Positions 2,463 through 58,257 of a stretch of DNA of 64,000 nt are shown piece by piece. The DNA comes from Octopus sinensis (Eukaryota): positions 115,568,001-115,632,000 of the forward strand of contig NC_042998.1 of the NCBI RefSeq assembly GCF_006345805.1, written 5' to 3'. Within the stretch, counting starts at the first letter, position 1. Every line of letters starts with the position of its first letter. The notes under the pieces are model-generated. The model was not told the origin of the DNA. It was given only the letters and a program-made list of their open reading frames with translations, and searched no databases. The translations under genes and the position numbers were made by a program.

Positions 2463-2562
2463 NNNNNNNNNNNNNNNNNNNNNNNNNNNNNNNNNNNNNN
2501 NNNNNNNNNNNNNNNNNNNNNNNNNNNNNNNNNNNNNNNNNNNNNNNNNNNNNNNNNNNNNN
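2463..2562. other. Assembly gap (100 N) between (TACA)n and (GAA)n repeats
   Basis: Run of 100 n. Confidence 1.
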
Positions 2563-3411
2563 GAAGAAGAAGAAGAAGAAGAAAGAGAGAAGAGAAGAAG
2601 AAGAAGAAGAAGAAGAAGAAAGAAGAAGAAGAAGAAGAAGAAGAGAAGAAGAAGAAGAAGAAGAAGAAGAAGAAGAAGAAGAAGGGTGAAGTTGCAGAAA
2701 AAAAGGAAGAAAGAGAAAAAAGGATATGACGAATTAAATAAAGAAAATAAAGACAAAGTTAACGGAAGAGCATGAGAACAACAATAATATAAGAAGAAAA
2801 AGACAGCAAGAGAAGAGCAAAAAAACTAAGAAAATCAACTTCAGTGTAGTATAAAAAGAAAAAGGACAAGATGAGAGACTGAAGAAGGAATGTGTAGTGG
2901 AGCTGAAAGAAAAAATAAAACCAAATATAAAGCAAAATAGCAAAACCACCGACACAAAACAAGAACAACAATAACAATAACAAAAACAGTAACCTAAAAA
3001 TGGTGGTAGCAGCAGCGACAATAAGCTCAGTAAAATAGAAAACAAACAAACAAAGAAAAAAAAAAGAAAATCGGAATAATTATGGAGCCCGATATCAAAG
3101 ACAAACAAAAACAAAGAGACGAAACGAAAGAGATGTTTAGAGCTTAATATACTGGTAGATTTTAGAAATCCCAGGATAAATGTCTATACACATATACGTA
3201 TGTATATATATACATATATGCATATATATCTAAATACACATACACATATACATGCACATACGTACATCCATCCATACATACACATGTGCATATACATATC
3301 TGTGTATATACATATATATATATATGTATGTATGTATGCATATATTTATGTATATACACATAGATTCATATATGTATACATTCATACACACACACACACA
3401 CACACACATAT

Positions 3412-3470
<59 letters not shown>

Positions 3471-3943
3471 GTAGAAATTCCCTTGACAAAAAAGAAAGTT
3501 GTCTGCCGTTTTATTTTTTAAAATCAAAAACCCGTTTAAAACTTAATATACGTGAGGGAAATATATGAAAGAAGAAAAGTAAAAAAAATATCGAAAATCA
3601 AAAATTCGAGTCAGTCGAAAAGTTATATAGAAAACCAAGAAAACCAATTCGAAGAAGAGTCTTCAGTATGTGATATTATACAAATATGTGGAAAATCAAG
3701 AAAAATAGCAAGATTATATCGTAAACTACGCACACTTGGTCAACTGAGACAAACTACATTGCTTATTTATTAGAGATAGAGCAGGAAAAATAGAATAGGA
3801 AAAAGATTTCAATTATCAGGAGAGACAAGAAGAAAATCCTATAAAATAATAAAAATAATAATAAAAGAATAAAGTTCGTCTTTATTTAGAAACAAGCATA
3901 AATTAGTGCAATCATTAGCACAGAAAATGGTGACAGTTTCATC

Positions 3944-3991
<48 letters not shown>

Positions 3992-4102
3992 TATTATTAT
4001 TATTGTTGTTGTTGTTGTTGTTGTTGTTGCTGCTACTGCTGCTGCTGTTGTTGTTGTTGTTGTTGTGTTGTTATTGTTGTTATTATTATTATTATTATTA
4101 TT

Positions 4103-4174
<72 letters not shown>

Positions 4175-4272
4175 TTCTATTCATTTCCTTCATGTTGCTG
4201 TTTGGTAATATTTGTCTTTCGAATAGTATTTTCTCGTCTGAGTGAATGTATGTGTGTGCTACTTGTATATTC

Positions 4273-4359
<87 letters not shown>

Positions 4360-4417
4360 GCATGAACGCGTCTATGTACACCCACACATAACACGCACGC
4401 ACACACACAAACACGCA

Positions 4418-4449
<32 letters not shown>

Positions 4450-4745
4450 TACACACACATATTTGTGTATGTGTGCCTGCGGTAGTACTATCATAATGAT
4501 TATACGTATTACTATTGATACAGCGTTCATTACGTTAGGCTTTGCTCCACCAGAATCACCTTTGTATATAAGCTGCATTTCTACGTATATTTTAGTCGTT
4601 TCTGAAGAGATGAGAGTCGTAACATCTGGCCATGGTTTTAAAGAAAACTAACAAGTGTCCCTATTCTAATTGTAACATTGTGTTCTTCCATATTGGTGTG
4701 TGGAAAAATAACTCTTCCCCCGTATATAATGTACCTATGTTTGCA

Positions 4746-4903
4746 AGAGTGGCTGTGTTGTAAGTAGCTTGCTAACCAACACATGGTTTCGGGTTCAGTC
4801 CCACTGCGTGGCACCTCGGGCAAGTGTCTTCTACTATAGCCTCAGGCCGACCAAAGCCTTGTGAGCGGATTTGGTTGACGGAAACTGAAAGAAGCCCGTC
4901 GTA

Positions 4904-6989: not shown

Positions 6990-8990
6990 CTTGAAAAGGA
7001 ATTCTCCACCCGCTACGATACGACGTCGAAAATCTCAATAAAAAATAGACGGTAGATATCAGTAACAGGTTCGAAACGCTACTCAAGATGCAAGAAGGGA
7101 AAAGCGCACACGATATGTGGCAATTGAGGGAAAAGGAAATTCTTGAATCTGCCGAAATACACTTACGGAAAAGAAAGAATATCAAAAAGCGGTCATGGAT
7201 AACCGTACCAACTATGGTGCTTTTTGGAAAAGGGAGGGCATTAAAAAAGATCAACAAATAAGTTAAACAAGAATATCTGAACGATAAAAGCACTTACATA
7301 AACAATTTGTGCGAAAATCTAGACGAACAAGCAAAACGCAATAACTCGAAATGTCTTTTCCAATAGATGAAGAAATTCAAATGATAATACACTGAAAAGA
7401 CAGGCAGAATCAAATCACAAGATTCCTAACAGGAGCACGACAGGTAAGGCAATGACGGTTAGAGTACACCAAGAATTTGTATGACAGGGATCCAAATGTC
7501 GGTACGGTTGATACAGATTTAAGGTATGAGAAAGAACCTGAACTACTAAGAGGTGAGGTAGAAAGAGCTCTGGAAAAGATAAAGAACGAGGAAGCACCAG
7601 GTCTAGTTGTAGTACCAACCGAAGCGATTAAGGTTGCAGGAGATAATGCCGTAATAATACTCTACAACCTCTGCTGCGAGGTCTTGAGAGGAGAAATGTA
7701 GCCGTCAGACTTGTGCACAGCAGAATATGTATAAATGCACAAAGACGGACACCTACTTGTGTGTGAGAATTATCGAACGATCGCTCTGATACCACATGCA
7801 AGTAAAGTACTGTATCAAAAACCTAGAACGTTTGAAACCGTCCCTCGAACAGGAACAGACAAATGAACAGGTTGGCTTTAGAAGCGGACGTGGCACAAGA
7901 TATCATTTGCACAATCACCATACAATTTTACGAAAAACATGAGCACACAACCTTACAACTTTTCCTTTGCTACATTGAATACAGAAAGGCCTTTGACTTT
8001 GCAATCTATATCCACATGTAGCGCGGCATTCCAAAATAAATTATTAGGTTCATGAAGCAGCTTTACATTTAGCATTGGTCCTGTATTCGAATAAGTAATG
8101 AAAACACAAGAAGTTCAAAAATGGGAACGAAGTTCTTCAGGGCTGTATTTTTTTCTCTCCATGTTTGTTCAGCATCTACACTGAATAGATAATGCGAGAA
8201 GCCATACAGGAAGAAGTTGACATCAAAATACATGGCTTGCCTATTTCTAATACAAGGTATGCAGATGATACTGCTCTACATGCCAAGACTGAAGACGGAT
8301 TACAAAAGATGATAGAGTCGAGAAGATATCAAATAAGTATGGTCTTTATCTCAACCATAAGAAAACAAAAGTCATATTAGCTGGAAAAGAGAAAGAAAAT
8401 ATTAACATCAAACTGGACAGTAACAGGTTTGAACAGGTTGAATTGTACAAGTACCTTGGAGCCCAAACCTCTGATAAAGCCATATGGAAGAAAGAAATTA
8501 GGAAACGGCTAGCCAAGGCAAGAATGTTCATGGAAAAGATTAATAACATCTAGACCAGCAAAAGTTTTGCAACTAAGTTGAAGTCAAAGCTAGTGCCAAC
8601 GATCATTTGACCAATAGGTATTTATGCTTGCGATGCATGGAGTCTGGACAATTCTGAAGGCAACATAATCACTGCGTTTTAAATGTAGGTGTATAGGAGA
8701 ATGTTACAAGCCTTGTATAATGATCATCAAACAAAAGAAAGGGTGATGCAAATAGGTGAAAGACAACAACTTCTGAATGTTGTGAAAAAACAAAAGCTCA
8801 TTTATCATGGCCATACTTGAAGAAGCAGAAGTTTGGGAAATATAGATCAAGAGGCAAGCAAAGAAAGCATTTGATGGACAATATCAAGAGTTGTTTGGAC
8901 AAATGTGGCAAGGCATCTGGAGAAATCGTGTTTAATCGAGTAGACTTTCATGGTAGCGTCATCAATGCGCTGCTGGCGTACGATACATGA
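6990..8990 (+). pseudogene. Degraded RTE-clade LINE reverse transcriptase
   Basis: Motifs across frames: EAPGLVVVPTEAIK, CENYRTIALIPHASKVL, EQVGFRSGRGTR, YRKAFD, QGC..SPCLF, RYADD (8255-8269), YKYLG, EIRKRLAKAR; many stops and frameshifts. Confidence 0.85.
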
Positions 8991-22262: not shown

Positions 22263-22326
<64 letters not shown>

Positions 22327-22530
22327 TTTGGTGCTTGTGTTTGTCCCACATCACAATCACTTGGCAACCGGTGTTGGTTTGTTTAACCGAGCTTTTCGGC
22401 AAAAGGGATCGATGAAATAAGTACAAGGCTTCAAAAGTTAAGTACTGGGCTCGATTTACTCGACTAAACCTTTTAAGGCGTTGCCCCTACATGGTCACAG
22501 TGCAACAACTGAAACAAAAGAGTAAAGAAT
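21826..22530. mobile_element. Cluster of SINE family A fragments in both orientations
   Basis: Head (+) 21826-21935, copy (-) about 21955-22255, tail (+) about 22330-22530. Confidence 0.7.
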
Positions 22531-22710
22531 ATATATATATACATATCTTGTAAAGGCGATTTAGCTTCTTTCATTTTCCCTTATATACATACTATACATA
22601 CATACATACATACATACATACATACATACATACATACATACATGCATACATATATACATACATATATACATACATACACACACACACAAATATATGTATA
22701 TATATATATT

Positions 22711-23553
22711 GAAAGCTATAATGGATAAACGTTCTAATCGGTCAAAACAGCATTATATCATTCCCAAAAGATAAATCAAATATAAATATATATTAAAATA
22801 ATAGTGCACCCAATGGTAAAACCCGACAGTATAAAATATGCACACATACACGAATAAGAGGTGATAAAACCTAAAAGGGTAATATGAGTGAAGTTGAATG
22901 AAGAAAAATATATGGAATAAATTAATGCATATTAAAGGCGACTACAAATTTAATGGCTCTGAAATATAAATATAAATATATCAAAATAAAACAATGTAAA
23001 TATAAAAAATAAGATGTATGGTAACCAAAACAGAGTCCATTCAAGCCCATCTAAACGATCGTTTCAAAGGACGTTGCTTCAATAGATGCAATGTAATAAC
23101 CAGAAATGTGAAGCCTTTGAAAGTTTTCTCCTGATGAAAAGGTGTTGCCGTTGGATTTCCTCAATGGATTTTACATTAACGCTGTTAAGCAGCATCCTTT
23201 GAAACGATCGTACAGTTGGGCTTGAATGGATTCTTTTCTGGTTATCTTACACTTTATTTTTTATATTTATACTCTTGGGTATTTATATATTTATATCTAT
23301 ATTATTTTAGCTCCATTGCTTGAAATTTTTAGTCGCCTTTATTATGCATTAATTTATTCCATATATTTTTCTTCATTCAACTTCACTCATATTACTCTTT
23401 TAGGTTTTATCACCTTTTATTCGTGTATAAATGCATATTTTATACTGTTGGGTGCCCTGTAGCTTTAATACATATTTATATTCGATTTTTGATAATTTGT
23501 GAATGATATAAAACTGTTTTGATTGATTCGAGTGTTTATTCATTATACCTTTC
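22711..23553. repeat. Large imperfect inverted repeat (~390-bp arms, ~60-bp loop) with hammerhead at the turn
   Basis: 22711-23102 is the reverse complement of 23165-23553, e.g. aatatgagtgaagttgaatgaagaaaaatatatggaataaattaatgcata versus its exact reverse complement. Confidence 0.92.
23128..23215 (+). ncRNA. Type-I hammerhead with intact core and branched 63-nt stem II
   Basis: CTGATGA (23131-37) aaaggtgttgc...gcagcatccttt GAAAC GATC GTA; palindromic stem III ACGATCGT; stem I weak (ctc/cag). Confidence 0.7.
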
Positions 23554-23773
23554 GCCTCGGTGTCACCTCAGCACTTCCAGCTGCGGTCCTACTTTTACTT
23601 TTGTTCTTGTGTTTAATGAAATTGCGTTACGGTTTATAAAATTATAAGTTATAGGATAATCCTCTTAAACACACACACACACCACACACACACACACACA
23701 CACACGTCCTTATATTTTTGAGCAAGGGAGTTCAATGTCTCAACTCAGCTCTAAAGCAATATCTTTGTACAAA

Positions 23774-23912
23774 TTTCAAATTCCGCCGAGGTCGACTTTG
23801 CCTTTCATCCTTTCGGGGTCGATAAATTAACTATCAGTTGTGTACTGGGGTCGATCTAATCCACCGGCCCCTTCCTCCACAATTTTCGGCCTTGTGCCTA
23901 GAGTAAAAACGA
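23774..23912 (+). mobile_element. SINE family B, 5'-truncated
   Basis: TTCAAATTCCGCCGAGGTCGACTTTGCCTTTCATCCTTTCGGGGTCGATAAA. Confidence 0.8.
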
Positions 23913-23996
23913 ATATCTGAGTGCAAATTGTATCTGGGTTATTCCCCTTCATCAGCACTGAATAACTGCTCGGCTAGAAATAATGACACCAAACTC

Positions 23997-24029
<33 letters not shown>

Positions 24030-25739: not shown

Positions 25740-25893
25740 TATTATTATTATATCATTATTATTATCGAAATGCACAAACATTAACAGATGTAATTCTCTG
25801 CAAATTTACGCTAATAGATTATCTTTACTAAAATAAACTTCAATCTATTAATTTATATTCTTGTTGTTTATTGTAACAATAATAATAATAATG

Positions 25894-25926
<33 letters not shown>

Positions 25927-25947
25927 GTAATAATAATAATAATAATG

Positions 25948-25986
<39 letters not shown>

Positions 25987-27503
25987 TAATAATAATAATA
26001 ATCTTTTTTTATTAGTAGTACTATCATCATTATCGTCATCATCATCATCACTATTATTATTATTATTATTATTATTATCATTATCATTGTATGTTGTGAT
26101 GCTTATTAGTTTTGCGATTGTTTTTTTTTGTTTTCTTATTATATGTAGTATGGTATCTATTGTTGTTATTATTCTTTCTTCTATTTTCACTATCTCTTTC
26201 TATCAGTCTCTCTCCCTTCTCCCCTTCTCTCCTTCCCTCTTTCTTTCTTTCTTTCTTTCTCTGTCTGTCTCTCTTTTCTCTCTCTCTCTCTCTCTTCCTC
26301 TCCCTCACTCACGCATATTCAAGCACGTATGCACACAGACACACATCTTTCTCTTAATAGGTCTCATGCCCTCCCATTCTGCATCAAAACTTCTTTATTT
26401 ATTCATTCATTCATTTATTTATTCATCCATTGCTCTTTATCAATATTTATAAATTTGTTAGCCAACTTCGCCGAAACAACGCAACCGGAAGCTGAGCCAT
26501 CAGCGATATTGCTTCCGTTTTTCTCAAATCGTCTCCTCCCATGCCTTCGCTACAGCGCTCTTCACGTCTTTGCCAACCTATCCTCCACCATTTCCGATGA
26601 CTGAAACCCCATCTGCCACCAACCACAACCAATACCCTACAACCAGCTAACTCTACCACATCATCTTCTACACCCACGCACAAAATATTCTGCATCTTTT
26701 CGTTTGCCAATAACATCTATGCCCACGAAGTCTGTAGATCTCTACGGCACCGAAGCCCCACATTGTTGTTCTGTCCGTTATTCATGGTGTTACTACTGTC
26801 GATTTTGTTGTTATTACTGTTGCTTCCTGTTAGTATCGTTGTTGATGTTGATGATGTTAGTGATTATATTTCTCTTTCTGTTTTTACTCTTAGCGTCGGC
26901 TCTTATTGCTCTGAATACCGTCATAGTGAATTATAGTTATTGTTGATGCTGTTGTTGTTGTAGATGCCGTTTCTGTCCATATTATTATTTTTATGTGATT
27001 ATCATTGAAGTTGTTGTTGATGCTGCTGTTGTTGATGGCAACAATGCTGATACTGATGTTGATTCTGATCATGATGATCATGATAATAAAATAGTGAGTA
27101 TAATGACGATAATGATAATAATGAGGTTGATGCTACATTGAGCAAACTAAAGATGATGATGATGTTGGTGGTCGGATCGTGTTGGTGGTGGCGGTGACGA
27201 AGGTGGTGATAATTACGATGACTGGTAAATAGATGATGATGAAAAGGAGAAGAGTGATGACTATAGCGTTACTGACACACATGATGAAGATCGTGATGAT
27301 ATTTGCAATGGCGGTGCCATGGTGATGATGCTGAATATTTAAAATTACAAACAGTATGAAGTGGAAGGTGAAGATGATGGTGCTTATGATGATGATGATG
27401 ATGAGTATGGTGATGTTAATGATGGTGGTAGTATGGAGGTGGGCGGGCTTTTGGCGGCGGTGCTGCTGTCGTCTTGACGATGCTACTATTTTTGCAACTG
27501 ATG

Positions 27504-28206: not shown

Positions 28207-28237
<31 letters not shown>

Positions 28238-28288
28238 GTTATTATTATTATTATTATTATTATATTATTATTATTATTATTATTATTA

Positions 28289-28340
<52 letters not shown>

Positions 28341-28399
28341 CATCATCATCATCATTTCATTTCAAAGTATGGATATAAAATACTGGTGTTGGGTGTTTT

Positions 28400-29460
28400 T
28401 TTTTTTATTCTTCATGTTAACTGGGAATTCTTAATGAAGGTCACAAATCTGATTGATATACAAGCGTTCTTGGTACCATGATAAATTTTAGTCGAGATTG
28501 AGCCTAATACTCCTATAATAACTAGTTCAACTTGCATTTTTTGCTGCTGGGCATCCTACATTCATGATATGTTTACTGTTAAATGACACATTTCGAGAAT
28601 ATTTCTAGTTTCTTGTCCGCAATATTTTTGTCCGAAGGTATTGGAACATCTGGTCATGAGAATTATATTGGTGCTGAGGTCATCAAAAGCATCTGTTAGC
28701 ACTTCTTTGAGGAGAAAGAATTTACCTTAAAAGATCCCCCATTTTCTATGCGAAAGTAATTTACAGATTCTTAAATTTCTTCTCTGATCTTAATCTAAAC
28801 GACCTCTTTCGGCTTCTCTCTGCTTCCATTCTTGAACTCTCACTTCGTCTATATATTTATGAATAATTCTTCTCTGACTCAGAAAATTTCAAAAGTTCGC
28901 TGCTGTCATTTCTCGCAACCATGAACTATTATGAGTCCTAGTTGTCTTCCTCTCTCTAGAAACTTTCAGATTGGTCAGGTTTTTGTTTCTTTTCTTTTCT
29001 TCTTCGAAACCGACCGACAGAGACCGTCAGTCTCTTTTTGATTTCCATCCATGAACGTTGATCATCTGGTATTGCTATGATGGGGTTTCGATGGTTTAGT
29101 CTTTCCTGCTTCTTCCTCTGTGGTTACTGGCGGTGCTGATGAGTTGTCCGACATGCCTGCTACTACAAACGGTGATGCAACTGAGGATGAATTAAAGATA
29201 GCAGAAACCGGTGCCTGCTCATTTCGACCACACTCCTTTTTACCCCGGTCATTGCAGTTCCTCGAAGATGAAACATCTCAAGTTGTTAATGCAAATGTAA
29301 CACCTTGGCTTTCTGCATTTCACCTCTTGTCCATTTATGTCCATGCCACTAAGGTGAGACACAGCTAGAGGATGGCTCCATGATCATGAAGTCTCATTAG
29401 AATTTCAAACCCTTGCTCATCTCTCCCGCTTATATGTTCCTCGCCCCTGTGTTAGAGTCT
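28400..29460 (-). pseudogene. Highly decayed, internally deleted RLE-type LINE
   Basis: DVPIPSDKNIADKKLEIFSKC and VELVIIGVLGSISTK (RLE C-terminus) at about 28490-28660; SQRRIIHK N-terminal-like motif near 28870. Confidence 0.5.
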
Positions 29461-32329: not shown

Positions 32330-32754
32330 GTTGCTCTGCTTTGTGGCAGAAGTAGGAAGAAAGAGTACAGCGGGATTCATCCTCCCCATCCCCGCCGGAG
32401 CCTCGTGGAGCTTAGGTGTTTTGCTCAATAAACACTCACAATGCCTGGTCTGAGGAATCAAAGCCGTATTCTTATTTCTTTATTGCCCACAAGGGACTAA
32501 ACATAAAGGGGACAAACAAGGACACACAAACGGATTAAGTCGATTACATCGACCCCAGTGCGTGATTGGTACTTAATTTATCGACCCCGAAAGAATGAAA
32601 GGCAAAGTCGACCTCGGCGGAATTTGAACTCAGAACGTAGCGGCAGACGAAATACCGCTAAGCATTTCGCCTGGCGTGCTAACGTTTCTGCCAGCTCACC
32701 GCCTTCTTACGACCGTGAGTCCGCTGCCCTAACCACTAGGCCATTGCGCCTCCA
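32330..32754 (-). mobile_element. tRNA-derived SINE interrupted by a family B SINE (32470-32704, minus)
   Basis: Head GGAGGCGCAATGGCCTAGTGGTTAGGGCAGCGGACTCACGGTCGTA at 32708-32754 resumes below 32469; TTCTTA on both sides of the insert. Confidence 0.75.
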
Positions 32755-33009: not shown

Positions 33010-34302
33010 TTTTTGTTGTTTTCGATGATGTTTTTGTGGTCTTGTTGTTGTTGCTTGTCTTTCACATAATTCCATTTGTTTGCTTGATATTCTAATCGCT
33101 GTTGCTGCTGTTGTTATTGTTTACATTAGACATTAATAATAGTAATTAATTTATCTCAGGCTGTAATTGCTGTTATTGCCAACATTGTTGTTGTACGTGC
33201 TATTTTTCTTGTTGTTGCTATTGCTATTACAGTAATTCATTCTCCTACTTCTTGACAGTTATCGTCGTGGTTGCTCTTGCACTTAAGTGAACACTTGTTG
33301 CTAAAATCAAAAAATAGTGACCACAATGATGCTCATAATAGCTGCTACTGCTACTGATGATGATGATGAGGAGGAGGAGGAGGAGGAGGATATTGTCAAT
33401 ATCATCATCGACAACATTATCAAGGCAACAAAACAAATCATAAAAACTGACATGCGTTAATAAAAACACTCTTGCATCCAGAAACAGAAATCCAAATATG
33501 TACATTGATACAGTTATTAACTTGGCGACACGAACATTTTCTCCACCCGCTTCCATTTTTCTATGATCAGTATCATTCTGAAGTCTGGGTCTTGGCTTCC
33601 TTTTGCTCACATTCCTGCGTTGCTTATACTAGTTTTTAAAACTTTTTTTTGCGAAGAATTTTACGGCTCAATTTGTTGCGGACGCTGCTGCATTGAATTT
33701 TGAGTGCACGAGTAAGAATTCTCAAGATTTCATTATTCCTCTACCAATATTCTGCAAAGGTTGTCTTGCATATTACCATAATGTTTCTATGAGGCATAGC
33801 TTTCAACTGACTCTTTTCAAAAAAGTTAGCATATTTCCCGGCATACAAACCGTGCAGGGCAAACATTCAGACATCGTCACTGTTGCATTTGACAAGGAGT
33901 TTTTGTCCTCCAAAGTCGTCTTGGTGTAAAAGTTGACATACATTTTTTTTTAATTGTAAATTTGGTAAAATAGAATTGTATGTCAGAAATTATGGTATGT
34001 CACTTGAGTCACGCTTGCGAAACTTCTCTGTAAATTGAAGTACAGCATACATCGAAAACAATAGTGATTTCGTTTCCCACCAAAAGGCTCCGCAATAACT
34101 TTCTGCACTTAGTCGTCCCCTGCGTTGCTTTGTTCATCACTATTCTATCTCCACTCCTGCATTCGCCAACATTAAAGTATGTTCATTTGGTAACCATAAG
34201 GGCCACTGTAAAATGACAGCATACTAAACACAGACTTCAAAAATCATACCTATCTTGCCTTAATGACACTGTTTCTTTTAAAATATATGTATGCATAAGT
34301 AA

Positions 34303-34512
34303 AGGCGGAGTGCTGGCAGAATCGTTAGCACTCCGGACAAAATGCTTAGCGGCATTTCGTTTATCTTTATGTTCTGAGTTCAAATTCCACCGAGGTTGAT
34401 TTTGCCTTTCATCCTTTTGGGGTTGATGGAATAAATACCAGCTGCACGCTGGGCTCGATGAAATCGATTTAGCCTCTACAACCCAGAAATTTCTGGCCTT
34501 GCACCATAATTA
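34303..34512 (+). mobile_element. SINE family B
   Basis: GGCGGAGTGCTGGCAGAATCGTTAGCAC...GTTCAAATTCCACCGAGG. Confidence 0.8.
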
Positions 34513-38071: not shown

Positions 38072-38300
38072 CGAGCTGGCAGATTCGTTAGCACGGCGGA
38101 CGGAATGCTTAGCGGTATTTCATCTGCCGCTACGTTCTGAGTTCAAATTCCGCCGAGGTCGACTTTGCCTTTCACCCTTTCGGGGTCGATAAATTATGTA
38201 CCAATTACGCACTGGGGTCGATGTAATCGACTTAATCCGTTTGTCTGTCCTTGTTTGTCGCCTCTATGTTTAGCCCCTTGTGGGCAATAAAGAAATAAGA
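38072..38300 (+). mobile_element. SINE family B with target-site duplication
   Basis: AATAATCGACG at 38063-38073 and 38300-38310. Confidence 0.88.
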
Positions 38301-39689: not shown

Positions 39690-40760
39690 CCTGTTTCGTA
39701 GCCAAGTGCTGAATGAAAGCACGTTTGTTTCATTCATCATCTTTGAAGTCTTATATTTGCAGAATTTCATAATTTCGGATATCGTGATTGGTAGAGTATG
39801 ATTTAAGAAGTTGCCTTCTTTCCCCATGTAATTAAGTACAGCTATATTTTGCTCCTGACAGCTATATGTTGCTCCAGTAATAACAGGTGTGAAGGTGAAA
39901 GTGTATCTTGGATACTTGGTTTACAAATTCCTTATCAATGGTCCATAGACGTCCTCTTTCTCCTGTATTTTTTCCGACCACACAAGTGTCCAGCTGATTT
40001 CTAGAACAGTGCCAGATGTCTCATAAAGCAATATCTGGCTGGTTGTGTTTTAGTTTGGTGTCTGTGTTTAATTTTAAGTTCCACCACTATTCTTATTGGC
40101 CTCAATATACTCAACACTGTCTGATCGTGTTTTACTCTCTTTTCTCTTTTACTCTTTTACTTGTTTCAGTCATTTGACTGCGGCCATGCTGGAGCACCGC
40201 CTTAAATCGAGTAACTCGACCCCGGGACTTATTCTTTTGTAGGCCCATTTAATTTTTATTTCTTTTTTTTTTTTTTGTTATTCATTTCCAAAGTGTTTTG
40301 ACTACCACATCATGATTCATGGGAAGATTATATCTTGAAGACATTCACTCACAGTTGACAATAATGTAGTTGATGACGGCAGTGAGCTGGCAGAATCGTT
40401 AGCACGCCAGGCGGAATGCTTAGCGTTATTTCGTCTGCCGCTACGTTCTGAGTTCAAATTCCACCGAGGTCAACTTTGCTTTTCATCCTTTCGGGGTCGA
40501 TGAAATAAGTACCAGTTAAGTGCTGGGGGTCGATGTAATTGATTAGCTCCCTTCCCCCAAAAGTTTCAAGTCCTTGTGCCTAGAGTAGAAATAATAATGT
40601 AGTGGATGTTGCCAAGTTTATTATTTCATTACCTAGAGCTGCTGTCTGATAATGATTTCTACCTTTTGTGCTGCAGGAACTTGGTGGCGATATCTTAGAT
40701 AGAGACAGCTCCTGACGTGAGATATTTTAGATTTGTCTGGAGTCCTTGCCAAACTTTTGA
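39690..40760 (-). pseudogene. RLE-type LINE 3' relic interrupted by two SINEs (family A tail 40140-40245; family B 40377-40592)
   Basis: WWNLKLNTDTKLKHNQPDI; INYIIVNCE*MSSRYNLPMNHDVV, homologous to the 15.3-kb relic; 16-bp TSD AATAATGTAGT(T/G)GATG around the family B SINE. Confidence 0.75.
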
Positions 40761-41745
40761 TATGATCAATTCTGATCCCAGCTTTTGATATGACCAATTT
40801 CGACCCTAGTTCTCAACATGTACTTATTTTATCGACCCTAAAATGATGGAAGGCAAAGTCGACATCGGCAGAATTTGAACTCAGACCATGAACACAGACG
40901 AAATACTGCTTAGCATTTTGCTCGGCCTGCTAAAGATTCTGTCAGTCAGCTCCCCAAGCTTACAACAACGGCGACAAGGAGAAGAAGGAGAAGAAAAAGA
41001 AGAAGAAGAAGAAGAAGAAGAAGAAGAAGAACAAGAAGAACAAGAAGAAGAACAAGAAGAAGAAGAAGAAGAAGAAGAACAACAACAACAACAACAAGAA
41101 ATCGTGTGCACATTGAGGAGCAAGAATCAAAACGATGATATACATATTCATTCTTGTATGTTGCAGCAGATTTGAATATGTATCTGGAAAATGCTGTTGT
41201 ATTACACTATTGGAGAACAACTCATTTCTGACGAATGTGTGTTCATAGCACGCTTGATTCACAAGGCAAATGTACTTTGGTCAGCGGCGTTTCGACCTGT
41301 TTCAATATCTCATCAGCTGAAGCTTCCCTGACTATGGCTCGAACAAGACACTTGTTTATAAAATTTGGCACGCAAATTTCTTGCTGATGTGTATTAATGT
41401 CTGCCAACCGGTAATAAATTAAAAGTTCTAAATATTATAAATCTTTTCTGTGATAATATTTTATTGCTGACGACACTTTGTGAGTTCAAACGTTATGCTT
41501 GAAAAAAACTTATATATTGAATGAAGTCACTCACAAAATCGAAACTTATAATATGGAATGAAACAGAAGACCTAATCAAAATTTTAAACATAATGAAACA
41601 ATGTTTTGAAAATCTAAAAATTTATGCAATAAATTAAAAATAAGAGAATTTCCGTGAGTCCAGCGAGTTAACAATAATATAGTTTAGATATACAGATATT
41701 TATAGAAGGAATATAAAGCTACGATTTTTTCACTAAGCAGTTAAA

Positions 41746-44810: not shown

Positions 44811-46250
44811 ATATATATATATATATATAATATAATATAATATAATATAATATAAATATATATGGGCAACAGACACGAACACACATGTGTGCACGTACAC
44901 CTATTGCATGTTTTGTGCATGTTCATAAACAGAAATGAATGGGAAAATGTCGTTAAATTTGTAGACTAACACTCGCACGATTTTCACTAACAAAAATAAT
45001 GGGGGGGGGGGTTGCGTGGAATCAACTACTCTGGCCTCCTAATATGATACAAAACCCTTTTTGTGGTCCGTGAAACGGAGTGGGTGTGGTGGAAACCTCG
45101 GAAATGGTACCCATTTATATTGTGCAATTCACTGACAAATTGCTACTCACCTCTTTGTTTCTTTGTTGTTAAATAAATGGATTGTCAACAAAACACTTTT
45201 TTACTCGGCGTAAAATAAAAACAAAACTCTTTCGCACCCAAAGTAATGTGTGTGAGAGAGAGAGGGGGGAAGATGAACGATTTCAAATAAATAAATGATT
45301 TAAAATAAATATATTGTAATCGTTCTGAGAGAAAGTATATATAAAGTATAGTGTCTTTCAAAAACATCCTGAATTTGAACACTATATCTCGTGTTTAAGA
45401 AAAGACAAAACATTTTACATTTTATATTTTATGAACGTCGTCACTTACTCTCTCACCCTATCTCACTTTGTCTTTCTCGTGAAACTTTCTGCTTCTCTTC
45501 CACTTTTCTTTATCTTGTTTTTTTTTGTTAGACGCCGTCAAAAAGCTATGGCAGAAAAAAGATTTTTACCGCTAAAATTTATGGCTAAAAATAGATTTTT
45601 ACAGCTATCCGCGGGTTCCTCAGGAAAAAGTAAGTTGACAAAACCCAGTTAGGATGTTGACGAATGTCCTAAAATTTGAGAGACATGCGTGCTAATTCGT
45701 GGATGTGCATAAACTACAATCACGTACACACACACACACACACACGTCTTGCCGTATATATATATACAGATATATATAACTATATATGTATTCCCAACCA
45801 CATGGTTCTGGATTCAGTACTATTGCGTGACACCTTGGGCAAGTGTCTTCTGCTATAGACTCGGGTCGACCAAGGACTTGTGAGTATATCTGGTTGACGT
45901 AAACTGTAAGAAGCCCGTTTTATATATGTATATATATAATTATAGTATATTGTGTGTATATATACATACACAGATGCTCGCGTGTGCATACACACACTTA
46001 CACACATGTATACATATCTACTTACACACACACACACACGCACATCCACTCACACCATACGTATAAATATATATATTCACACACAAATTTAAAAAAGAGG
46101 AGCTTATTAGCAATTAAATAAAGGCGATTTTATAGAGGTAAAAAAAGCGACAGATGGTACTGACTAGCACAGTTTTTGTTAAAATAACTGAAAGCCACAA
46201 GAGCACTGAACTTAATGACTGATAAAGAGAGGTAAGTCCTCAGCGTGCAT

Positions 46251-46306
46251 AGCCGGATCGCAATTTCAGATTTTGATGCAGGCCATCTTAATCTTCATCA
46301 GCGACT
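46251..46306 (-). ncRNA. Type-I hammerhead ribozyme, intact core
   Basis: agtcg CTGATGA agatt aa gatg gcctg catc aa aatct GAAAT tgcg ATC cggct: 5-bp stems I and II, AUC site. Confidence 0.82.
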
Positions 46307-46474
46307 CTTAAAACCTAGAGTTAAACAAATTCAAACAATCTTTTATTAATTCATTATATTTTTGATTGAGAGTTTGAAAAAGATGCTGATATTTTGTAGT
46401 TCGTCTGAGAATGTTGATATTGAACACACACACAAATACATACATATATTTATATATACAAATATATATATATT

Positions 46475-52424: not shown

Positions 52425-52732
52425 TTAACTGGCAGGACATCGGTACTTTTTGCTCAATTCATCTAATTTTCTACCGGCAAAATTTGTATAAGTCCTGTAA
52501 TATGTGTCTGATGGTAAGATTAACTGAATCTCGCGTTTTTCATGAGGATTTATGTAACCGATGACCAAATAATCTTTGCCCTTTATCAACTTGGGACAAT
52601 GGCAGCCCTTTGCCAAGTAAATGAATTCTCTCGACATCAGTGGTAAAGTGTAGCGGTAAAGTTTTCTCACGGCGACATCGTAGCGGACTTGGTTTTTCAC
52701 TTTACTCACAGACCTCACACTTATATGACTCA
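52425..52732 (-). CDS. ADAMTSL5: Terminal coding exon: NTR (UNC-6/NTR/C345C) domain, ADAMTS-like protein 5-like
   Basis: Acceptor tttcttctttcAG (AG at 52734-52733), phase 1, open to TAA at 52427-52425; RYDV..PLMSREFIY..CHCPKL..DYLVIG..QLILP..YYRTY..RCP parallels the ADAMTSL5 C-terminal NTR as I recall it; domain call firmer than orthology; upstream exons not found in window. Confidence 0.75.
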
Positions 52733-52765
52733 CTGAAAGAAGAAATAATAATAATAATAATAATG

Positions 52766-52817
<52 letters not shown>

Positions 52818-52821
52818 TAAC

Positions 52822-52856
<35 letters not shown>

Positions 52857-52857
<1 letters not shown>

Positions 52858-53068
52858 TTAGACAAATACATAACAAAAACACCAGGACTAAGAAGTATAT
52901 TGTAACATGCAGAAAATAGTACTACTAGACATCGCACACATCCTACGTAAAACACTTTCAATACAGTAAAAATAAGAGCACCACAACAAATCACAGCACA
53001 TACCCAAGGCACACAGAGTTGCGCTCGGTAATGCAGTGGAAGCACGTGGTAAATATAAGACTACTGAA
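52857..53068 (+). mobile_element. R4/Dong-like LINE 3' end inserted in (AAT)n
   Basis: DKYITKTPGL..MQKIVLLDIAHILRKTLSIQ* plus 3' UTR; (AAT)n on both sides. Confidence 0.8.
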
Positions 53069-54227: not shown

Positions 54228-57200
54228 ATGTCCGGAGATAAAACTATCAACAAAAAAATACAGACGAATATAGATCTGCTAGTCTTAAGAAGCGGCGCTA
54301 TGAGCAATGCTTACATGTAGTGAACCCTAAACTGACAGAGCCATCTCCTAATATAAGAATGGATGCTCGTCATGCTTCAAGGTCAACAAATCAAACAATA
54401 AACCGCATTGGTCATTGCGCGGATTACAAAAGACCACGTACCCGAAAATTGAACCAAATCCTGATTGAAAAATCAGTTACTGGATCAAATCTTCCCAACA
54501 CACAGGAGCTGGACGAACCCCACAACCGGAATATTCCAACAGATGGCCATCCATGCTCATCACCAAATAATCAAAAGAAAAAGAAGGAAAAATGGTCTAG
54601 GGAAGATAATAAAGAAGTTCTAGAGGCCTTCTACCATGCCATATATTTCCCCACAGATAAGTCTAGCACTGTACAAGCATACTTAAACTGGAGACAGAAC
54701 ACCCTGAAGTAAGACCCTACATAGACAGTAACAAGCTTGCCAATGTTAGAAGAAACATTATAAAAAAGAATTACTGACTGAAGTAGAGATTGATCAGGTT
54801 AGACAAGCAATATCGGATAAAATGAACGAAGCTGCAGCTACAGAAGATAATACAGAGGAAATGATTATAGACCAGCCCAGGGCGGATAAAAACGAAGAGA
54901 GGATTGAAAGAGTTAGTATAAGTGATAGGCAAAGTGAAATACGCCCTGAACCAATCATAAACACTAAGACAGATGAGCATCAAATAGATAAAGAAAGTCA
55001 CACAAATATTGACCCAACAGAACTACATGAGCTAAAAAATCAAATCATGATTGAATGGCTGAAAATTAAAGAACCAGCATGGATGAGCGTGATACACTTC
55101 CTAAAATCCGCAACTCTAACCAAAACATGAAAATAATTGGTAAAATCCGGCTTGCACTTAAGGATATAATTTCAGTTAATGATGTTGATATCACAAACCT
55201 CAACCACCTATACTATGCATCCGCGAAAATCTCAACGATCCTATGTGGTGTAAAGATTAGAAAACGGCAACAGTCCCACAAAAAGCCTTCTTGGCAAGAG
55301 CGTCTGCAACAACAAATTAAAGTGTTTAGATCTGACATTGAATATTTGAAAAACCTTAAGGCTCACAAGACTGCCAAACCTACAAAACCCCAAAATTACT
55401 GAAAAAATACAATATGAAAACTATACTTGATATTGATGCCACCATAGAAACCATCAAACAAAAGGTATCTGCCAAAGCTGCCCGCATAGCGAGGTATGAA
55501 AAGCGTGTTAGATTTTTCAAGGACAACAACATGTTCAAAAATAACACCAAGAATTTTTACAGGAAGATAGGAAAAACAGCGTTTACTGCAGGGTCTGTAC
55601 CATCAAAAGAAGAAGTGCAGAGATTTTGGAATAAAATCTGGGCAGAAGAAAAAACACGCAACGAAAAGGCCCCCTGGATTGACAGAATATCTACAGAACT
55701 GGACCCCTTAGAAGAGCAAAAGTGGGAGGGTGTCAAGGTAGAAGATATAAGATCTGCTCTCAGGAGGTCAAGCAAATGGAAGTCTCCAGGAAAGGATAAA
55801 ATTCCTAACTTCTGGCTGAATGCCTTCCCAGAGAGCCATGAACTGCTAACAGAACTGTAAAATGATGTTTTGCAACACCCTAGTAGGATGCCTCCTTGGC
55901 TAGTTAATGGGTTAACATTCCTGCTTCCAAAAAGTGAAGAAACAAATGAACCAAAAAACTATAGACCCATAACCTGCTTAACAACTATGTACAAAACACT
56001 AACATCTGTCCTGACGGAATATACCTATAGTTTTTTAACAGACAGCAGCATATTCCCTAATGAACAGAAAGGATGTAAACGTGGATCCTACGGCTGTAAA
56101 GACCAACTACTCATCAATAAGATGATCTTAGAAGATTGTCACAAACGACACAAAAACTTATCAATAGCCTGGATAGACTATAAAAAGGCTTTTGATAGCC
56201 TACCACATAGCTGGATTAGGAAATGCCTTGAAATGTATAAGATAGCACCAACTCTGCGAAACTTCTTGACTGTAAGTATGAGATCATGGAGAACCACACT
56301 AACTCTGAACAGTGACAGTGAATCCCTAAATGCTGGTGATGTAAAAATTTCGTGTGGCATTTTCCAGGGTGACTCACTGTCACCACTCCTCTTTTGTTTA
56401 TCCTTAATACCTCTCTCAAAGCTGCTCAATGACGCGCAGTACGGGTATAAAATGTTTGATAAAAATATAAATCATCTCGTTTACATGGATGATTTAAAGC
56501 TTTTTGCAAAAAATGATCAACAACTCAAGGGCTTACTAGCGATAGTCAAACAATTCAGTGACGACATCAGAATGCAATTCGGCCTCGATAAATGTGCAAA
56601 GGCTACCTTTATCAAAGGAAAAATGACAGAAACATCTAACGTTAACCTTGACCAACAGAATGTCATTAAAGAACTAGACCCAGCGGAGAGCTACAAGTAC
56701 CTAGGGGTAATTGAAGGGAACGGAATAAGGCATTCAGAGATGAAGGAAAGGATCAGGAGAGAATGCTATCGAAGAGTGAGAGCAATACTCAAGACAGAGC
56801 TGAATGCAAGAAACAGGATCGAAGCAATCAATGCATTAGCTATACCAGTCGTGACTTACAGTTTCAATATTGTTAACTGGTCAATTACTGAAATATGTCA
56901 GCTCGACAGAAAAATAAGGAAACTGTTGACAATGCATAGAATGCACCACCCTAAGGCAGATACAGAACGACTCTATCTGCCAAGAAAAGAGGGAGGCCGT
57001 GGTCTTTTGCAACTGGCAATAACAATGAAGATTGCTACAATTGGCCTAGACACCTACCTGAAAAACTCTGAGGACTGGATGTTAAAACTTGTCTCAAAAC
57101 ATGAAAACAAGAAAGCATCATACTCAGTCACAAAACAGGCAAAGGAATATCTAAGTGAATTCCGAATACAACCAATTTCGGAATTAGAGATAGACATACA

Positions 57201-58257
57201 AGAAACAAGCACAGAAAAAGCTAGGCGCATGAAAACCCGTGCCAAAACTGCGGCCTTAGATATTCTGAATAATAAATGGCAAGAAAAACCTCTCTATGGC
57301 AAATACCCAAAGAGAGCGAATAATGCAGATATCGACAAAGCCCTGACCCATCAATGGCTAATGGCCTCTGGCTTAAAATCTGAAACAGAGGGGTTTATCA
57401 TAGCAGCTCAAGATCAATGCCTACCAACAAGAAACTACCAGGCCAACATATTAAAGATCAGAAGCAGTCCAACGTGTCGTGTATGCAAGCAACAAAATGA
57501 AACCATTGACCATGTGGTCTCCAAGTGCAGTCTTCTAGCGCCTACAGAGTATCTCAACAGGCACGATAGAGCTGCACAATATATTCACTGGGTAATCTGT
57601 AAAAACCTGGATTTGCCCCATGAAAAAAACTGGTGGGAACACAAACCACCCCCAGTGCTTGAAAATGACCACATCTCACTCCTCTGGAACTTCACCATTC
57701 AAACTGACAGGAAGATAGATGCAAATAGGCCAGACATCATATTGAAAGACTTCAAACAAAGAACATGCCTCCTCATTGATATGACTGTCCCAATCGATAT
57801 AAACGTATCTGTCAGGACCTACCAAAAACTGAGCAAATATAAAGATCTTGAAATAGAAATCAGCAAAATGTGGAAGCTGAAGACTAAAACAATACCTGTT
57901 GTCATAGGTGCCCTGGGAATGATAGCAAAAGGGGCTGATAGCTACCTAACTCAGATACCAGGAAACCCAAAAATGGCAGAAGTTCAAAAGATAGTGCTCA
58001 TGGGAACTGCTCATATCCTACGCAAAATACTCTCTATGTAACCTCAAGGTTTAAAACAACCATAATTTTCGGTTTAAAAAAAAAAAAAAAAAAAAAAATT
58101 TTTTTTTTAGACATTCATTAGTACAACATCCCCACCCCCCAAATATATGGCACACTAGGCATAACAACAACATGAACTTCCAACCCTGTTGTCCCTTGAG
58201 GTCTCTGGGTGAGACTTGGAGCCAACTTGTACAAATATAAAGCAAAAGTCAAACATA

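What the first reader, a model, noticed from the sequence alone, without database searches (positions are those of the whole stretch)
22711..23553. 840-bp hairpin with a branched-stem-II hammerhead at its apex
The ~390-bp arms surround an intact core CUGAUGA...GAAAC GAUC GUA with palindromic stem III ACGAUCGU, which is dimer-competent. Stem II is 63 nt: an 11-bp basal helix carrying two inner hairpins (ccgttgg/tcaatgg and ttaac/gttaa). Stem I is imperfect, so this copy may be inactive. It is the largest predicted dsRNA in the window.
Basis: partly seen in the sequence, partly recalled or inferred. Interest (0 to 1): 0.72.

Follow-up and report, generated by a model that had tools for sequence, protein, structure and literature searches.

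The report
Head-to-head hammerhead retroelement copies
The 840-base hairpin is two copies of an old interspersed repeat lying head to head in a microsatellite, a layout that Penelope-like jumping genes likely produce, and the hammerhead ribozyme motif it carries is inherited from the repeat family and is probably dead in this copy.

Summary
The hairpin and the hammerhead core are real. Arms 22704-23081 and 23187-23553 fold at -409.6 kcal/mol (z -28.9). CUGAUGA, a 63-nt helix II, GAAAC, GAUC and GUA lie at 23131-23212.

It is not a single-copy RNA gene. The motif belongs to a repeat with at least 40 copies in this 2.72-Gb animal genome. Here a full unit (23089-23667, +) abuts an inverted, 5'-truncated second copy (22704-23081, -). 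Both 3' ends point outward into microsatellites. The same head-to-head layout occurs in 14 of 40 loci. This matches published insertion signatures of Penelope-like elements (PLEs), whose RT/GIY-YIG genes are abundant in this genome. No autonomous parent was found.

The hammerhead is not a free module at the apex. Its 3' half, including the cleavage site, lies inside the right arm and pairs with the left arm in the full fold.

Family copies keep the proposed pairing (89% of cells, against 38-49% for slid controls) but show no covariation. This copy has lost 2 of 4 proximal stem I pairs.

Cleavage, transcription and editing were not tested. The scan has reported this kind of element in other genomes. 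It is a new member of a known kind, of low to moderate interest.

The parts
22560..22703 (.). Left flank: compound microsatellite (ACAT)n, (AC)n, (AT)n. Presumed part of the insertion target.
   Evidence: Sequence; tandem families D1/D2.
22704..23081 (-). Left arm: inverted copy of the repeat unit. It is 5'-truncated, lacks about the first 98 nt of the unit including CUGAUGA, and ends outward at the family's short-form 3' end directly against (AT)n.
   Evidence: Matches the same part of the unit in other loci in reverse orientation. 9.6% different from the family majority.
23040..23081 (-). Minus-strand relic of the 3' half of the hammerhead in the left copy (helix II 3' strand, GAAAC GAUC GUU). 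It has no CUGAUGA partner.
   Evidence: ACGATCGT at 23055. Own-genome match of 23026-23102 (-) to the motif's 3' half.
23082..23088 (.). Junction of about 7 nt between the two copies.
   Evidence: Gap between the two blast matches (gap of 11 nt by the script's measure).
23089..23667 (+). Right copy: complete short unit of the family with the long-form 3' end, followed directly by (AC)n. A 17-nt deletion relative to other copies lies at about 23553.
   Evidence: alignment of 22 copies. 9.0% different from the family majority.
23100..23241 (+). Hammerhead domain: distal helix CCAGAA/UUCUGG closing stem I, then stem I, the core, helix II and helix III.
   Evidence: distal helix formed in the MFE of 27 of 41 copies.
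23131..23137 (+). Core box CUGAUGA (positions 3-9).
   Evidence: Intact CUGANGA in 27 of 41 copies.
23138..23200 (+). Helix II, 63 nt: an 11-bp basal helix with one bulged U and an A-U closing pair at 10.1-11.1. The inner part has uncertain structure.
23201..23212 (+). GAAA box, 2-bp helix III with loop GAUC (8-nt palindrome 23204-23211), and GUA. The predicted cleavage site lies between 23212 and 23213.
   Evidence: GAAA in 40 of 41 copies and the palindrome intact in 17 of 41. The two CpGs decay fastest.
23213..23223 (+). 3' strand of stem I. This copy reads CAGU where the family majority reads GAGA, which breaks 2 of the 4 proximal pairs.
23668..23706 (.). Right flank: (AC)n microsatellite.

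Best explanation
The hairpin is a head-to-head pair of copies of a non-coding interspersed repeat that carries a hammerhead motif, and it was likely laid down in one retrotransposition event by a Penelope-like element (PLE) reverse transcriptase/GIY-YIG endonuclease.

Shown: a full unit (23089-23667, +) abuts an inverted, 5'-truncated copy (22704-23081, -). Both 3' ends face outward into microsatellite DNA. The same layout recurs at other loci of the family. The hammerhead motif is a family feature.

Inferred: the enzyme cut a microsatellite target and both DNA ends primed cDNA synthesis on the element's RNA, starting at one of two alternative 3' sites. The two cDNAs met in the middle, which left one complete and one truncated copy. 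The family would be a gene-less passenger of PLEs that kept the PLE-type hammerhead with a short palindromic helix III. That hammerhead would cleave, if at all, only as a dimer of two RNAs.

In this copy the ribozyme is predicted to be inactive. Two stem I pairs are lost. In a transcript spanning both arms, the 3' half of the core would be locked in a duplex of about 375 bp.
For: Repeat family. The own-genome search gave 56 matches (40 of 76 candidates scored) and a second search gave 48. The unit runs from 23089 to about 23553 or 23667.

Head-to-head layout. 14 of 40 loci, the window included, have an inverted copy within 60 nt of the 5' end of the motif-bearing copy. The inner ends vary (reference positions 2 to 445). 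The outer ends fall at the two family 3' ends (about 453-473 or 550-564).

Target. In the 22-copy alignment 10 copies end at the long form, 10 at the short form, and 2 are cut earlier. By eye, at least 14 of the 20 ends run directly into (TA)n, (CA)n or (TATG)n-type repeats.

Arm age. The arms are equally old, 9.0% and 9.6% from the family majority.

Published PLE signatures. [quoted passage not shown] PMC11167929 (passages) reports that a PLE protein cleaves and extends both strands and uses two RT start sites. PMC4209133 describes PLE hammerheads with a short palindromic helix III and a long helix II, pairs on opposite strands 100-700 bp apart, and most copies occurring as single truncated elements.

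PLEs in this genome. PF01541 gave 147 matches over cut-off from 5029 candidates (150 scored). ORFs of 775-883 aa carry RVT_1 plus a C-terminal GIY-YIG domain.

Other hammerhead motifs of the same build in this genome. L090 has a 54-nt helix II and GAAAC AUAU GUC, and its element ends in (TA)n. L039 is a 436-bp palindrome with GAAACGAUCGUA on both strands inside (AT)n. L089 has the pLTR-ORF-pLTR layout with a minimal motif in both repeats.

Motif significance. Sequestration of the core in the hairpin. Stem I loss.
Against: No sequence link to an autonomous PLE was found. The unit matched none of 30 GIY-YIG loci (1.5-kb flanks) or 4 larger PLE loci. The ORFs next to two family copies are LINE-type.

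The gap between the two 3' ends is about 115 nt, not the published 30-40-bp tail.

The arms share only 4 non-majority bases, against 1-3 expected by chance. A common template is therefore not shown, and two separate hits in a hot target are not excluded.

The closing pair of helix II is A-U, and there is no extra base after A9. PMC4209133 reports a highly conserved G10.1-C11.1 and an extra base there.

No Rfam hammerhead model matches, even at E up to 10. The same models also miss every other motif tested here, including those in the repeats of a complete PLE.

No covariation was seen. The core is barely better conserved than its surroundings (0.951 against 0.92-0.93 identity to the majority).

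No copy begins at the predicted cleavage site: 0 of 47 non-self matches.
Confidence: 0.72

Rival explanations
1. Two independent insertions of the same repeat landed in opposite orientation in the same microsatellite hot spot. Alternatively, a later local inverted duplication produced the hairpin by accident.
For: The target is a compound microsatellite, which the family favours. The arms share only 4 non-majority bases against 1-3 expected by chance, so a common template is not demonstrated.
Against: The inverted partner abuts the 5' end of the motif-bearing copy within 60 nt in 14 of 40 loci, and within 21 nt in 12 of them. That is far more regular than independent hits would give. In every such pair the 3' ends point outward. 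Both arms are equally diverged.
Confidence: 0.1
2. A DNA transposon of the MITE or foldback type, in which the arms are terminal inverted repeats bound by a transposase.
For: Long inverted arms with a short central loop.
Against: 26 of 40 loci hold a single arm only. The partner arm is truncated at a different inner position in each pair. The outer ends are the two alternative 3' ends of one asymmetric unit. Copies show graded 5' truncation. No target duplication is evident in the window's flanks.
Confidence: 0.04
3. A host RNA element kept at this locus for its own sake, such as a long double-stranded RNA precursor (editing or small-RNA substrate) or a regulated ribozyme.
For: Very stable predicted hairpin. 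The core, helix II and the helix III palindrome are intact in this copy.
Against: Both arms have drifted about 9-10% from the family majority, like other copies. Stem I is broken. There is no A-to-G bias in either arm. No RNA holder was available to test expression.
Confidence: 0.05
4. The hammerhead-like motif was never catalytic, even in the family's source copies. It would be a relic or mimic carried along from a PLE end, possibly kept as a protein- or RT-recognition structure.
For: The closing pair at 10.1-11.1 is A-U instead of the G-C reported as highly conserved. Metazoan PLE hammerheads show low activity in vitro (PMC4209133). In the anole PLE, cleavage was not needed for insertion in vitro and no RNA-seq read ends were seen at the site (PMC11167929). 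Here 0 of 47 copies begin at the predicted site. There is no covariation.
Against: All core boxes, a 4-bp proximal stem I and a palindromic helix III coincide in the family majority. Shuffles never give such a motif (0 of 200). Five 5'-truncated copies start within 17 nt of the site (23202, 23205, 23216, 23218, 23229). That cluster could equally reflect RT stalling.
Confidence: 0.3

Closest known systems
Insertion units of endonuclease-bearing Penelope-like elements: pseudo-LTR, adjacent inverted 5'-truncated copy, optional tail, microsatellite targets (Craig et al. 2021, PMC8557442; passages read)
   Same: An inverted 5'-truncated copy directly abuts the 5' end of a fuller copy. 3' ends point outward. 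Copies show graded 5' truncation. There are two alternative 3' ends. Insertion is into (TA)n/(CA)n-type repeats. A hammerhead motif is present.
   Different: The element has no RT/GIY-YIG ORF (a unit of 0.47-0.58 kb, with a form of about 1 kb carrying an extra 5' part). No head-to-tail partial tandem was seen in 40 loci. The alternative 3' ends are about 115 nt apart rather than 30-40. No autonomous parent was identified.
Minimal/dimeric type-I hammerheads of metazoan PLEs (Cervera and De la Pena 2014, PMC4209133; main text parts 1-2 read)
   Same: A type-I layout with CUGANGA and GAAA boxes. Helix III of 2 bp with a 4-nt loop forms an 8-nt palindrome. Helix I is short and helix II is longer than usual. 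Pairs occur on opposite strands a few hundred bases apart. Most copies are single and truncated.
   Different: Helix II is 63 nt and possibly branched, against the 7-8 bp reported. The closing pair is A10.1-U11.1 instead of G-C. There is no extra base between positions 9 and 10.1. Stem I can be closed by a distal helix.
Non-LTR retrozymes of animals: tandem hammerhead repeats, proposed to be non-autonomous PLE derivatives (bioRxiv 10.64898/2026.07.22.740005; abstract only)
   Same: A non-coding, hammerhead-bearing element that is probably dependent on PLEs.
   Different: No head-to-tail tandem arrays were seen here (0 of 40 loci), so no cis dimer and no obvious route to a circular RNA. Circular RNA was not testable.
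Twin priming of LINE-1 (recalled from memory, no call)
   Same: Both ends of the cut target prime reverse transcription, which gives an inversion.
   Different: In twin priming the inverted part is a different segment of one template, and there is no duplicated arm. Here the same 3' segment is present twice.

Membership tests
Hammerhead ribozyme, type I (metazoan/PLE kind) | Core boxes CUGANGA ... GAAA ... and UH at the cleavage site, in that order | tested here: met
   23131-23137, 23201-23204, and U23211 A23212. Among family copies, CUGANGA is intact in 27 of 41 and GAAA in 40 of 41.
Hammerhead ribozyme, type I (metazoan/PLE kind) | Helix II closes directly on the core, with G10.1-C11.1 (reported as highly conserved) and, in PLE motifs, an extra base after A9 | tested here: not met
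   An 11-bp helix closes on the core, but the closing pair is A23138-U23200 and there is no extra base. The feature list comes from PMC4209133.
Hammerhead ribozyme, type I (metazoan/PLE kind) | Short helix III with a palindromic sequence (dimer-competent) | tested here: met
   ACGAUCGU at 23204-23211. The palindrome is intact in 17 of 41 copies, and losses are at its two CpGs.
Hammerhead ribozyme, type I (metazoan/PLE kind) | Helix I of at least 4-5 bp flanking the cleavage site | tested here: not met
   The window copy has 2 of 4 proximal pairs. The feature is met in the family at large: at least 3 of 4 in 36 of 41 copies.
Hammerhead ribozyme, type I (metazoan/PLE kind) | Match to a curated covariance model (Rfam hammerhead families) | tested here: not met
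   No hammerhead hit at gathering score or at E up to 10. The models also miss the motifs in L003, L015, L039, L089 and L090 and at 46150-46400, so the test has little power here.
Hammerhead ribozyme, type I (metazoan/PLE kind) | Site-specific self-cleavage | not testable with these tools
   No RNA run was available. 0 of 47 genomic copies start at the site.
PLE-type insertion (EN+ Penelope-like elements) | Inverted 5'-truncated copy immediately adjacent to the 5' end | tested here: met
   The window plus 13 other loci, of 40.
PLE-type insertion (EN+ Penelope-like elements) | Insertion bias for microsatellites | tested here: met
   Window flanks. By eye, at least 14 of 20 complete 3' ends run into simple repeats.
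PLE-type insertion (EN+ Penelope-like elements) | Optional 30-40-bp tail / two RT start sites | tested here: inconclusive
   Two discrete 3' ends are present (10 short and 10 long of 22 copies), but they lie about 115 nt apart. A 5' extension of 25-45 nt is seen in 7 of 29 copies.
PLE-type insertion (EN+ Penelope-like elements) | RT plus GIY-YIG ORF in the element, or sequence identity with the end of such an element | tested here: not met
   The unit has no ORF. It gave no match to 34 PLE loci sampled, out of 5029 candidates, so the parent may simply not have been sampled.
Non-LTR retrozyme | Head-to-tail tandem repeats, each with a hammerhead | tested here: not met
   0 of 40 loci show a direct tandem. 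Same-strand pieces are single copies split by insertions.
MITE / foldback DNA transposon | Terminal inverted repeats in all copies, and target-site duplication | tested here: not met
   26 of 40 loci have one arm only. No duplication is visible at the window's ends.

The most novel reading that the evidence does not exclude
The family carries a new structural variant of the Penelope-type hammerhead: a 63-nt, three-way-branched helix II closed by A10.1-U11.1, set in a domain closed by a distal stem I helix. This domain, rather than simple decay, shapes the copies. Most copies begin about 11 nt upstream of the domain, and truncated ones cluster within 17 nt of the cleavage site. The ribozyme domain would then act as a processing or RT-stop signal for a gene-less parasite of PLEs.
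Probability: 0.1. Interest if true: 0.5.

Novelty: new member of a known kind. Interest (0 to 1): 0.25.

Why it matters
The finding is mainly a matter of correct annotation. A striking hairpin carrying a ribozyme core is a retro-insertion scar, not a dedicated RNA gene.

It adds a gene-less, hammerhead-bearing repeat family with an unusually long helix II to the catalogue of PLE-type elements.

It also gives a set of natural two-armed insertions (14 of 40 loci) with defined inner and outer ends. These could be used to study how PLE enzymes start and finish copying.

If such hairpins are transcribed, they are ready-made long double-stranded RNAs. That would matter for editing and small-RNA surveys in this genome, but it was not tested here.

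Tried and rejected
Rfam scans gave no hammerhead hit anywhere, including in the repeats of a complete PLE. I rejected this as a useful test.

Sequencing runs: no RNA holder was listed. Laying DNA contigs of four runs on 22300-24000 gave only short fragments from many paralogues. No contig spanned the locus, so there was nothing to use for dating or orthology. Expression, editing and read ends at the cleavage site therefore remain untested.

Search for the autonomous parent:
- The unit was compared with 30 GIY-YIG loci and 4 full PLE loci, with no match.
- The 10-kb flanks of the two longest copies hold only LINE pieces.
- ORFs beside another copy are APE+RT LINE ORFs.
- 12-nt motifs of the family do not occur in the held supplement of PMC8557442.

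The extra 5' part of about 415 nt seen in some copies belongs to a repeat of about 0.9 kb that ends about 29 nt into the unit at two loci. Its relation to the unit was not resolved.

Covariation and RNAalifold gave no support beyond common descent.

Shared private mutations between the arms and the A-to-G spectrum gave no signal.

The test for 5' ends at the cleavage site found none exactly at the site.

A literature search for hammerheads in cephalopods (listing only) found nothing beyond PMC8557442. The host's taxon was not determined.

Full report
**What is there.**
The window lies at C2:115568001-115632000 of a 2.72-Gb assembly in 13,516 contigs. The region 22704-23553 is a long imperfect inverted repeat. 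The ungapped blocks are 171 nt at 85% and 117 nt at 82% complementarity. As RNA, 22700-23560 folds at -409.6 kcal/mol against -160.0 +/- 8.6 for shuffles (z -28.9). It is the longest inverted repeat within 3 kb in the window.

- CTGATGA at 23131-23137
- a 63-nt helix II at 23138-23200
- GAAAC at 23201-23205
- GATC at 23206-23209
- GTA at 23210-23212
- the palindrome ACGATCGT at 23204-23211

I scanned with a hammerhead descriptor: core boxes, at least 5 bp of helix II on the core, a short helix III and UH. It finds this site and one other in the window. In 200 dinucleotide-preserving shuffles the mean is 0.07 hits, and none has a palindromic helix III. The motif is therefore not a chance match.

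The ribozyme is not a module sitting in the loop. The right arm begins at 23187. The 3' strand of helix II, the GAAA box, helix III, the cleavage site and the 3' strand of stem I are all part of the arm. In the minimum-energy fold, 23186-23232 pair with 23034-23081. Only CUGAUGA and the 5' part of helix II lie in the apical region. The 141-nt domain on its own is no more stable than shuffles (z -0.28). No Rfam family reaches threshold, and no hammerhead model matches even at E up to 10.

**It is a repeat family.**
A 201-nt query across the motif found 56 matches in the own genome, with 40 of 76 candidates scored. A second query found 48. These counts are lower bounds.

In other loci both arms of the window match one and the same stretch, in opposite orientations. 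The family unit is therefore asymmetric. It starts at window 23089 and ends either near 23553 (short form) or at 23667 (long form).

The window holds a complete unit on the + strand (23089-23667). A second copy on the - strand (22704-23081) lacks the first 98 nt or so, including CUGAUGA, and ends outward at the short-form end. Each arm differs from the family majority by 9.0% and 9.6%. They share 4 non-majority bases, against 1-3 expected by chance.

**The layout recurs.**
By script, 14 of 40 loci (the window included) have an inverted family copy within 60 nt of the 5' end of the motif-bearing copy. The partner's inner end varies from reference position 2 to 445. Its outer end falls at one of the two family 3' ends. 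One further locus (L029) looked the same by eye but did not pass the script's thresholds.

In the alignment of 22 copies, 10 end at the long form, 10 at the short form, and 2 are cut earlier. By eye, at least 14 of the 20 ends run straight into (TA)n, (CA)n or (TATG)n-type repeats. The window's flanks are (ACAT)n/(AC)n/(AT)n on the left and (AC)n on the right.

Copies show graded 5' truncation with a mode at 23089. Seven of 29 copies carry 25-45 extra bases upstream. At least 5 loci carry about 415 extra bases.

**Comparison with what is known.**
Craig et al. 2021 (PMC8557442; passages read) describe PLE insertions with these features:
- they are strongly 5'-truncated
- they carry an optional 30-40-bp tail
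- they show a strong bias for microsatellite targets
- hammerhead motifs occur in the pseudo-LTRs of canonical clades

A 2024 study of an anole PLE (PMC11167929; passages) found that the protein cleaves and extends both DNA strands and starts reverse transcription at two sites. Hammerhead cleavage was not needed in vitro.

Cervera and De la Pena 2014 (PMC4209133; main text parts 1-2) describe the PLE hammerheads as type I, with a short palindromic helix III. These are thought to act as dimers and have a longer helix II and low activity in vitro. They occur mostly as single truncated copies, or as pairs on opposite strands 100-700 bp apart.

The window's structure fits all of this. PLEs are abundant in this genome. 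The GIY-YIG model gave 147 matches over cut-off from 5029 first-look candidates, 150 of them scored. ORFs of 775-883 aa carry RVT_1 followed by a C-terminal GIY-YIG domain.

**Other motifs of the same build in this genome.**
- L090 holds CUGAUGA, a 54-nt helix II and GAAAC AUAU GUC, with a 5-bp stem I. The element ends in (TA)n and lies 1.3 kb upstream of a 775-aa PLE ORF. It may be a separate insertion.
- L039 holds a 436-bp palindrome (94.6%) with GAAACGAUCGUA motifs on both strands inside (AT)n.
- L089 is a pLTR-ORF-pLTR element with a minimal motif in both repeats.

Rfam's hammerhead models miss all of these. Their silence at the finding is therefore not diagnostic.

**The hammerhead in the family.**
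I aligned 41 copies of the domain (alignment A1). The proposed structure has a distal helix, stem I, an 11-bp basal helix II, two inner hairpins and helix III. It has 89.4% of cells paired, against 38-49% when the partners are slid by 1-3 columns. No measure exceeds column shuffles: 185 of 500 shuffles reach the observed pairing and 170 of 500 reach the covariation score. RNAalifold predicts no consensus pairs. This is what a set of neutrally decaying copies of one structured ancestor would give. It neither proves nor disproves function.

The family majority favours a different 5-bp hairpin (95.0% against 77.0% of cells).

In single-copy MFE folds the basal helix II appears in 12 of 41 copies, the first inner hairpin in 4 of 41 and the second in 7 of 41. 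The branched helix II is therefore weakly supported.

Core positions are only slightly better kept than the rest (0.951 against 0.92-0.93 identity to the majority). The two CpGs of the palindrome decay fastest.

Fifteen of 41 copies still meet all criteria. The window copy fails only stem I, with 2 of 4 proximal pairs (CAGU where the majority has GAGA).

Two features depart from the published PLE hammerhead. The closing pair of helix II is A-U rather than G-C, and there is no extra base after A9.

**Was the RNA ever cleaved?**
If cleaved RNA were copied, copies should begin at 23213. Of 47 non-self matches to a query spanning the site, none begins there. Closer inspection of five truncated copies puts their starts at 23202, 23205, 23216, 23218 and 23229. 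This is a loose cluster around the site. It could reflect RT stalling at the structured core as well as trimmed cleavage products. I leave it open.

**What could not be tested.**
No RNA run was listed for this stretch. The DNA contigs laid on it were fragments of many paralogues. Transcription, editing and small RNAs from the hairpin are therefore untested. Neither arm shows an A-to-G excess relative to the family majority.

The autonomous parent was not found among the 34 PLE loci sampled. ORFs next to family copies are LINE-type. I read only the abstract of the 2026 preprint that derives animal retrozymes from PLEs. Its supplements are closed. I only keyword-searched the supplement of PMC8557442. 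It lists cephalopod Naiad and Hydra families that insert in (TA)n, one of them marked HHR_half_core. I did not establish the host taxon of this window.

**Verdict.**
The reading as a hairpin built around a ribozyme should be replaced by this one: a PLE-type two-armed retro-insertion of a gene-less, hammerhead-bearing repeat, old (about 9% decayed), with a probably dead ribozyme in this copy.

Earlier agents of this scan reported the same kind of structure in other genomes.

Novelty is limited to a new family with an unusually long helix II. Interest is 0.25.

Noticed in passing
window 46240-46301 (- strand): A second, unrelated hammerhead-like motif: CUGAUGA, a 27-nt helix II (AGAUU/AAUCU plus GAUG/CAUC), GAAAU UGCG AUC, and a stem I of 5 bp. 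Microsatellite lies about 120 nt upstream. Together with the finding it makes 2 descriptor hits, against 0.07 expected. Rfam has no hammerhead hit there.
   Followed up: partly
L039 742-1177 (G000:C6:110417809-110418244): A 436-bp palindrome (94.6%) of another short family, with complete hammerhead motifs (GAAACGAUCGUA, 39-nt helix II) on both strands about 30 nt apart at the centre. It is flanked on both sides by (AT)n, and a GIY-YIG fragment with 2 in-frame TGA lies about 320 nt away.
   Followed up: partly
L090 about 7270-7416 (- strand): A hammerhead motif with a 54-nt unbranched helix II, a G-C closing pair, GAAAC AUAU GUC and a 5-bp stem I. It lies 1.3 kb upstream of a 775-aa RT/GIY-YIG ORF and ends in (TA)n. 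Long helix II seems common among such motifs in this genome.
   Followed up: partly
L089 584 and 6519; ORFs 1174-2610 and 2532-4874: An apparently complete PLE: direct repeats, each with a minimal hammerhead-like motif, flank a 479-aa ORF1 and a 781-aa RT/GIY-YIG ORF2. Many genomic copies share the 781-aa open frame.
   Followed up: partly
window 23089; L008 1087-1500; L096 7126-8001: Most family copies start at the same base (23089), 11 nt before the hammerhead domain. Some carry 25-45 or about 415 extra bases upstream. That upstream part belongs to a repeat of about 0.9 kb, which at two loci ends about 29 nt into the unit. The relation of the two repeats is unresolved.
   Followed up: partly
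L091-L095: Five 5'-truncated family copies start at 23202, 23205, 23216, 23218 and 23229 in window numbering. They cluster loosely around the predicted cleavage site (23212/23213) and none is exactly on it.
   Followed up: partly
window 23553: The right copy lacks 17 nt that other copies have between two direct CCTTTC repeats. This looks like a slippage deletion.
   Followed up: no
window 23775-23895: A piece of an extremely abundant repeat. Summed contig depth reaches tens of millions in all four DNA runs laid, and it is also present near many family loci.
   Followed up: no
window 55861-58041 (+) and 52425-53060 (-): A 726-aa open frame with RVT_1 (E 4e-28) and zf-RVT, which is LINE-type. 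A 211-aa open frame carries an NTR module (E 7e-9), probably an exon of a host gene about 29 kb from the hairpin.
   Followed up: no
window 25830-26002 / 28232-28401; 32536-32705 / 34302-34471; 38076-38221, 40387-40528 / 40800-40945: Other inverted repeat pairs of 100-170 nt, 0.3-2.6 kb apart. They were not examined.
   Followed up: no
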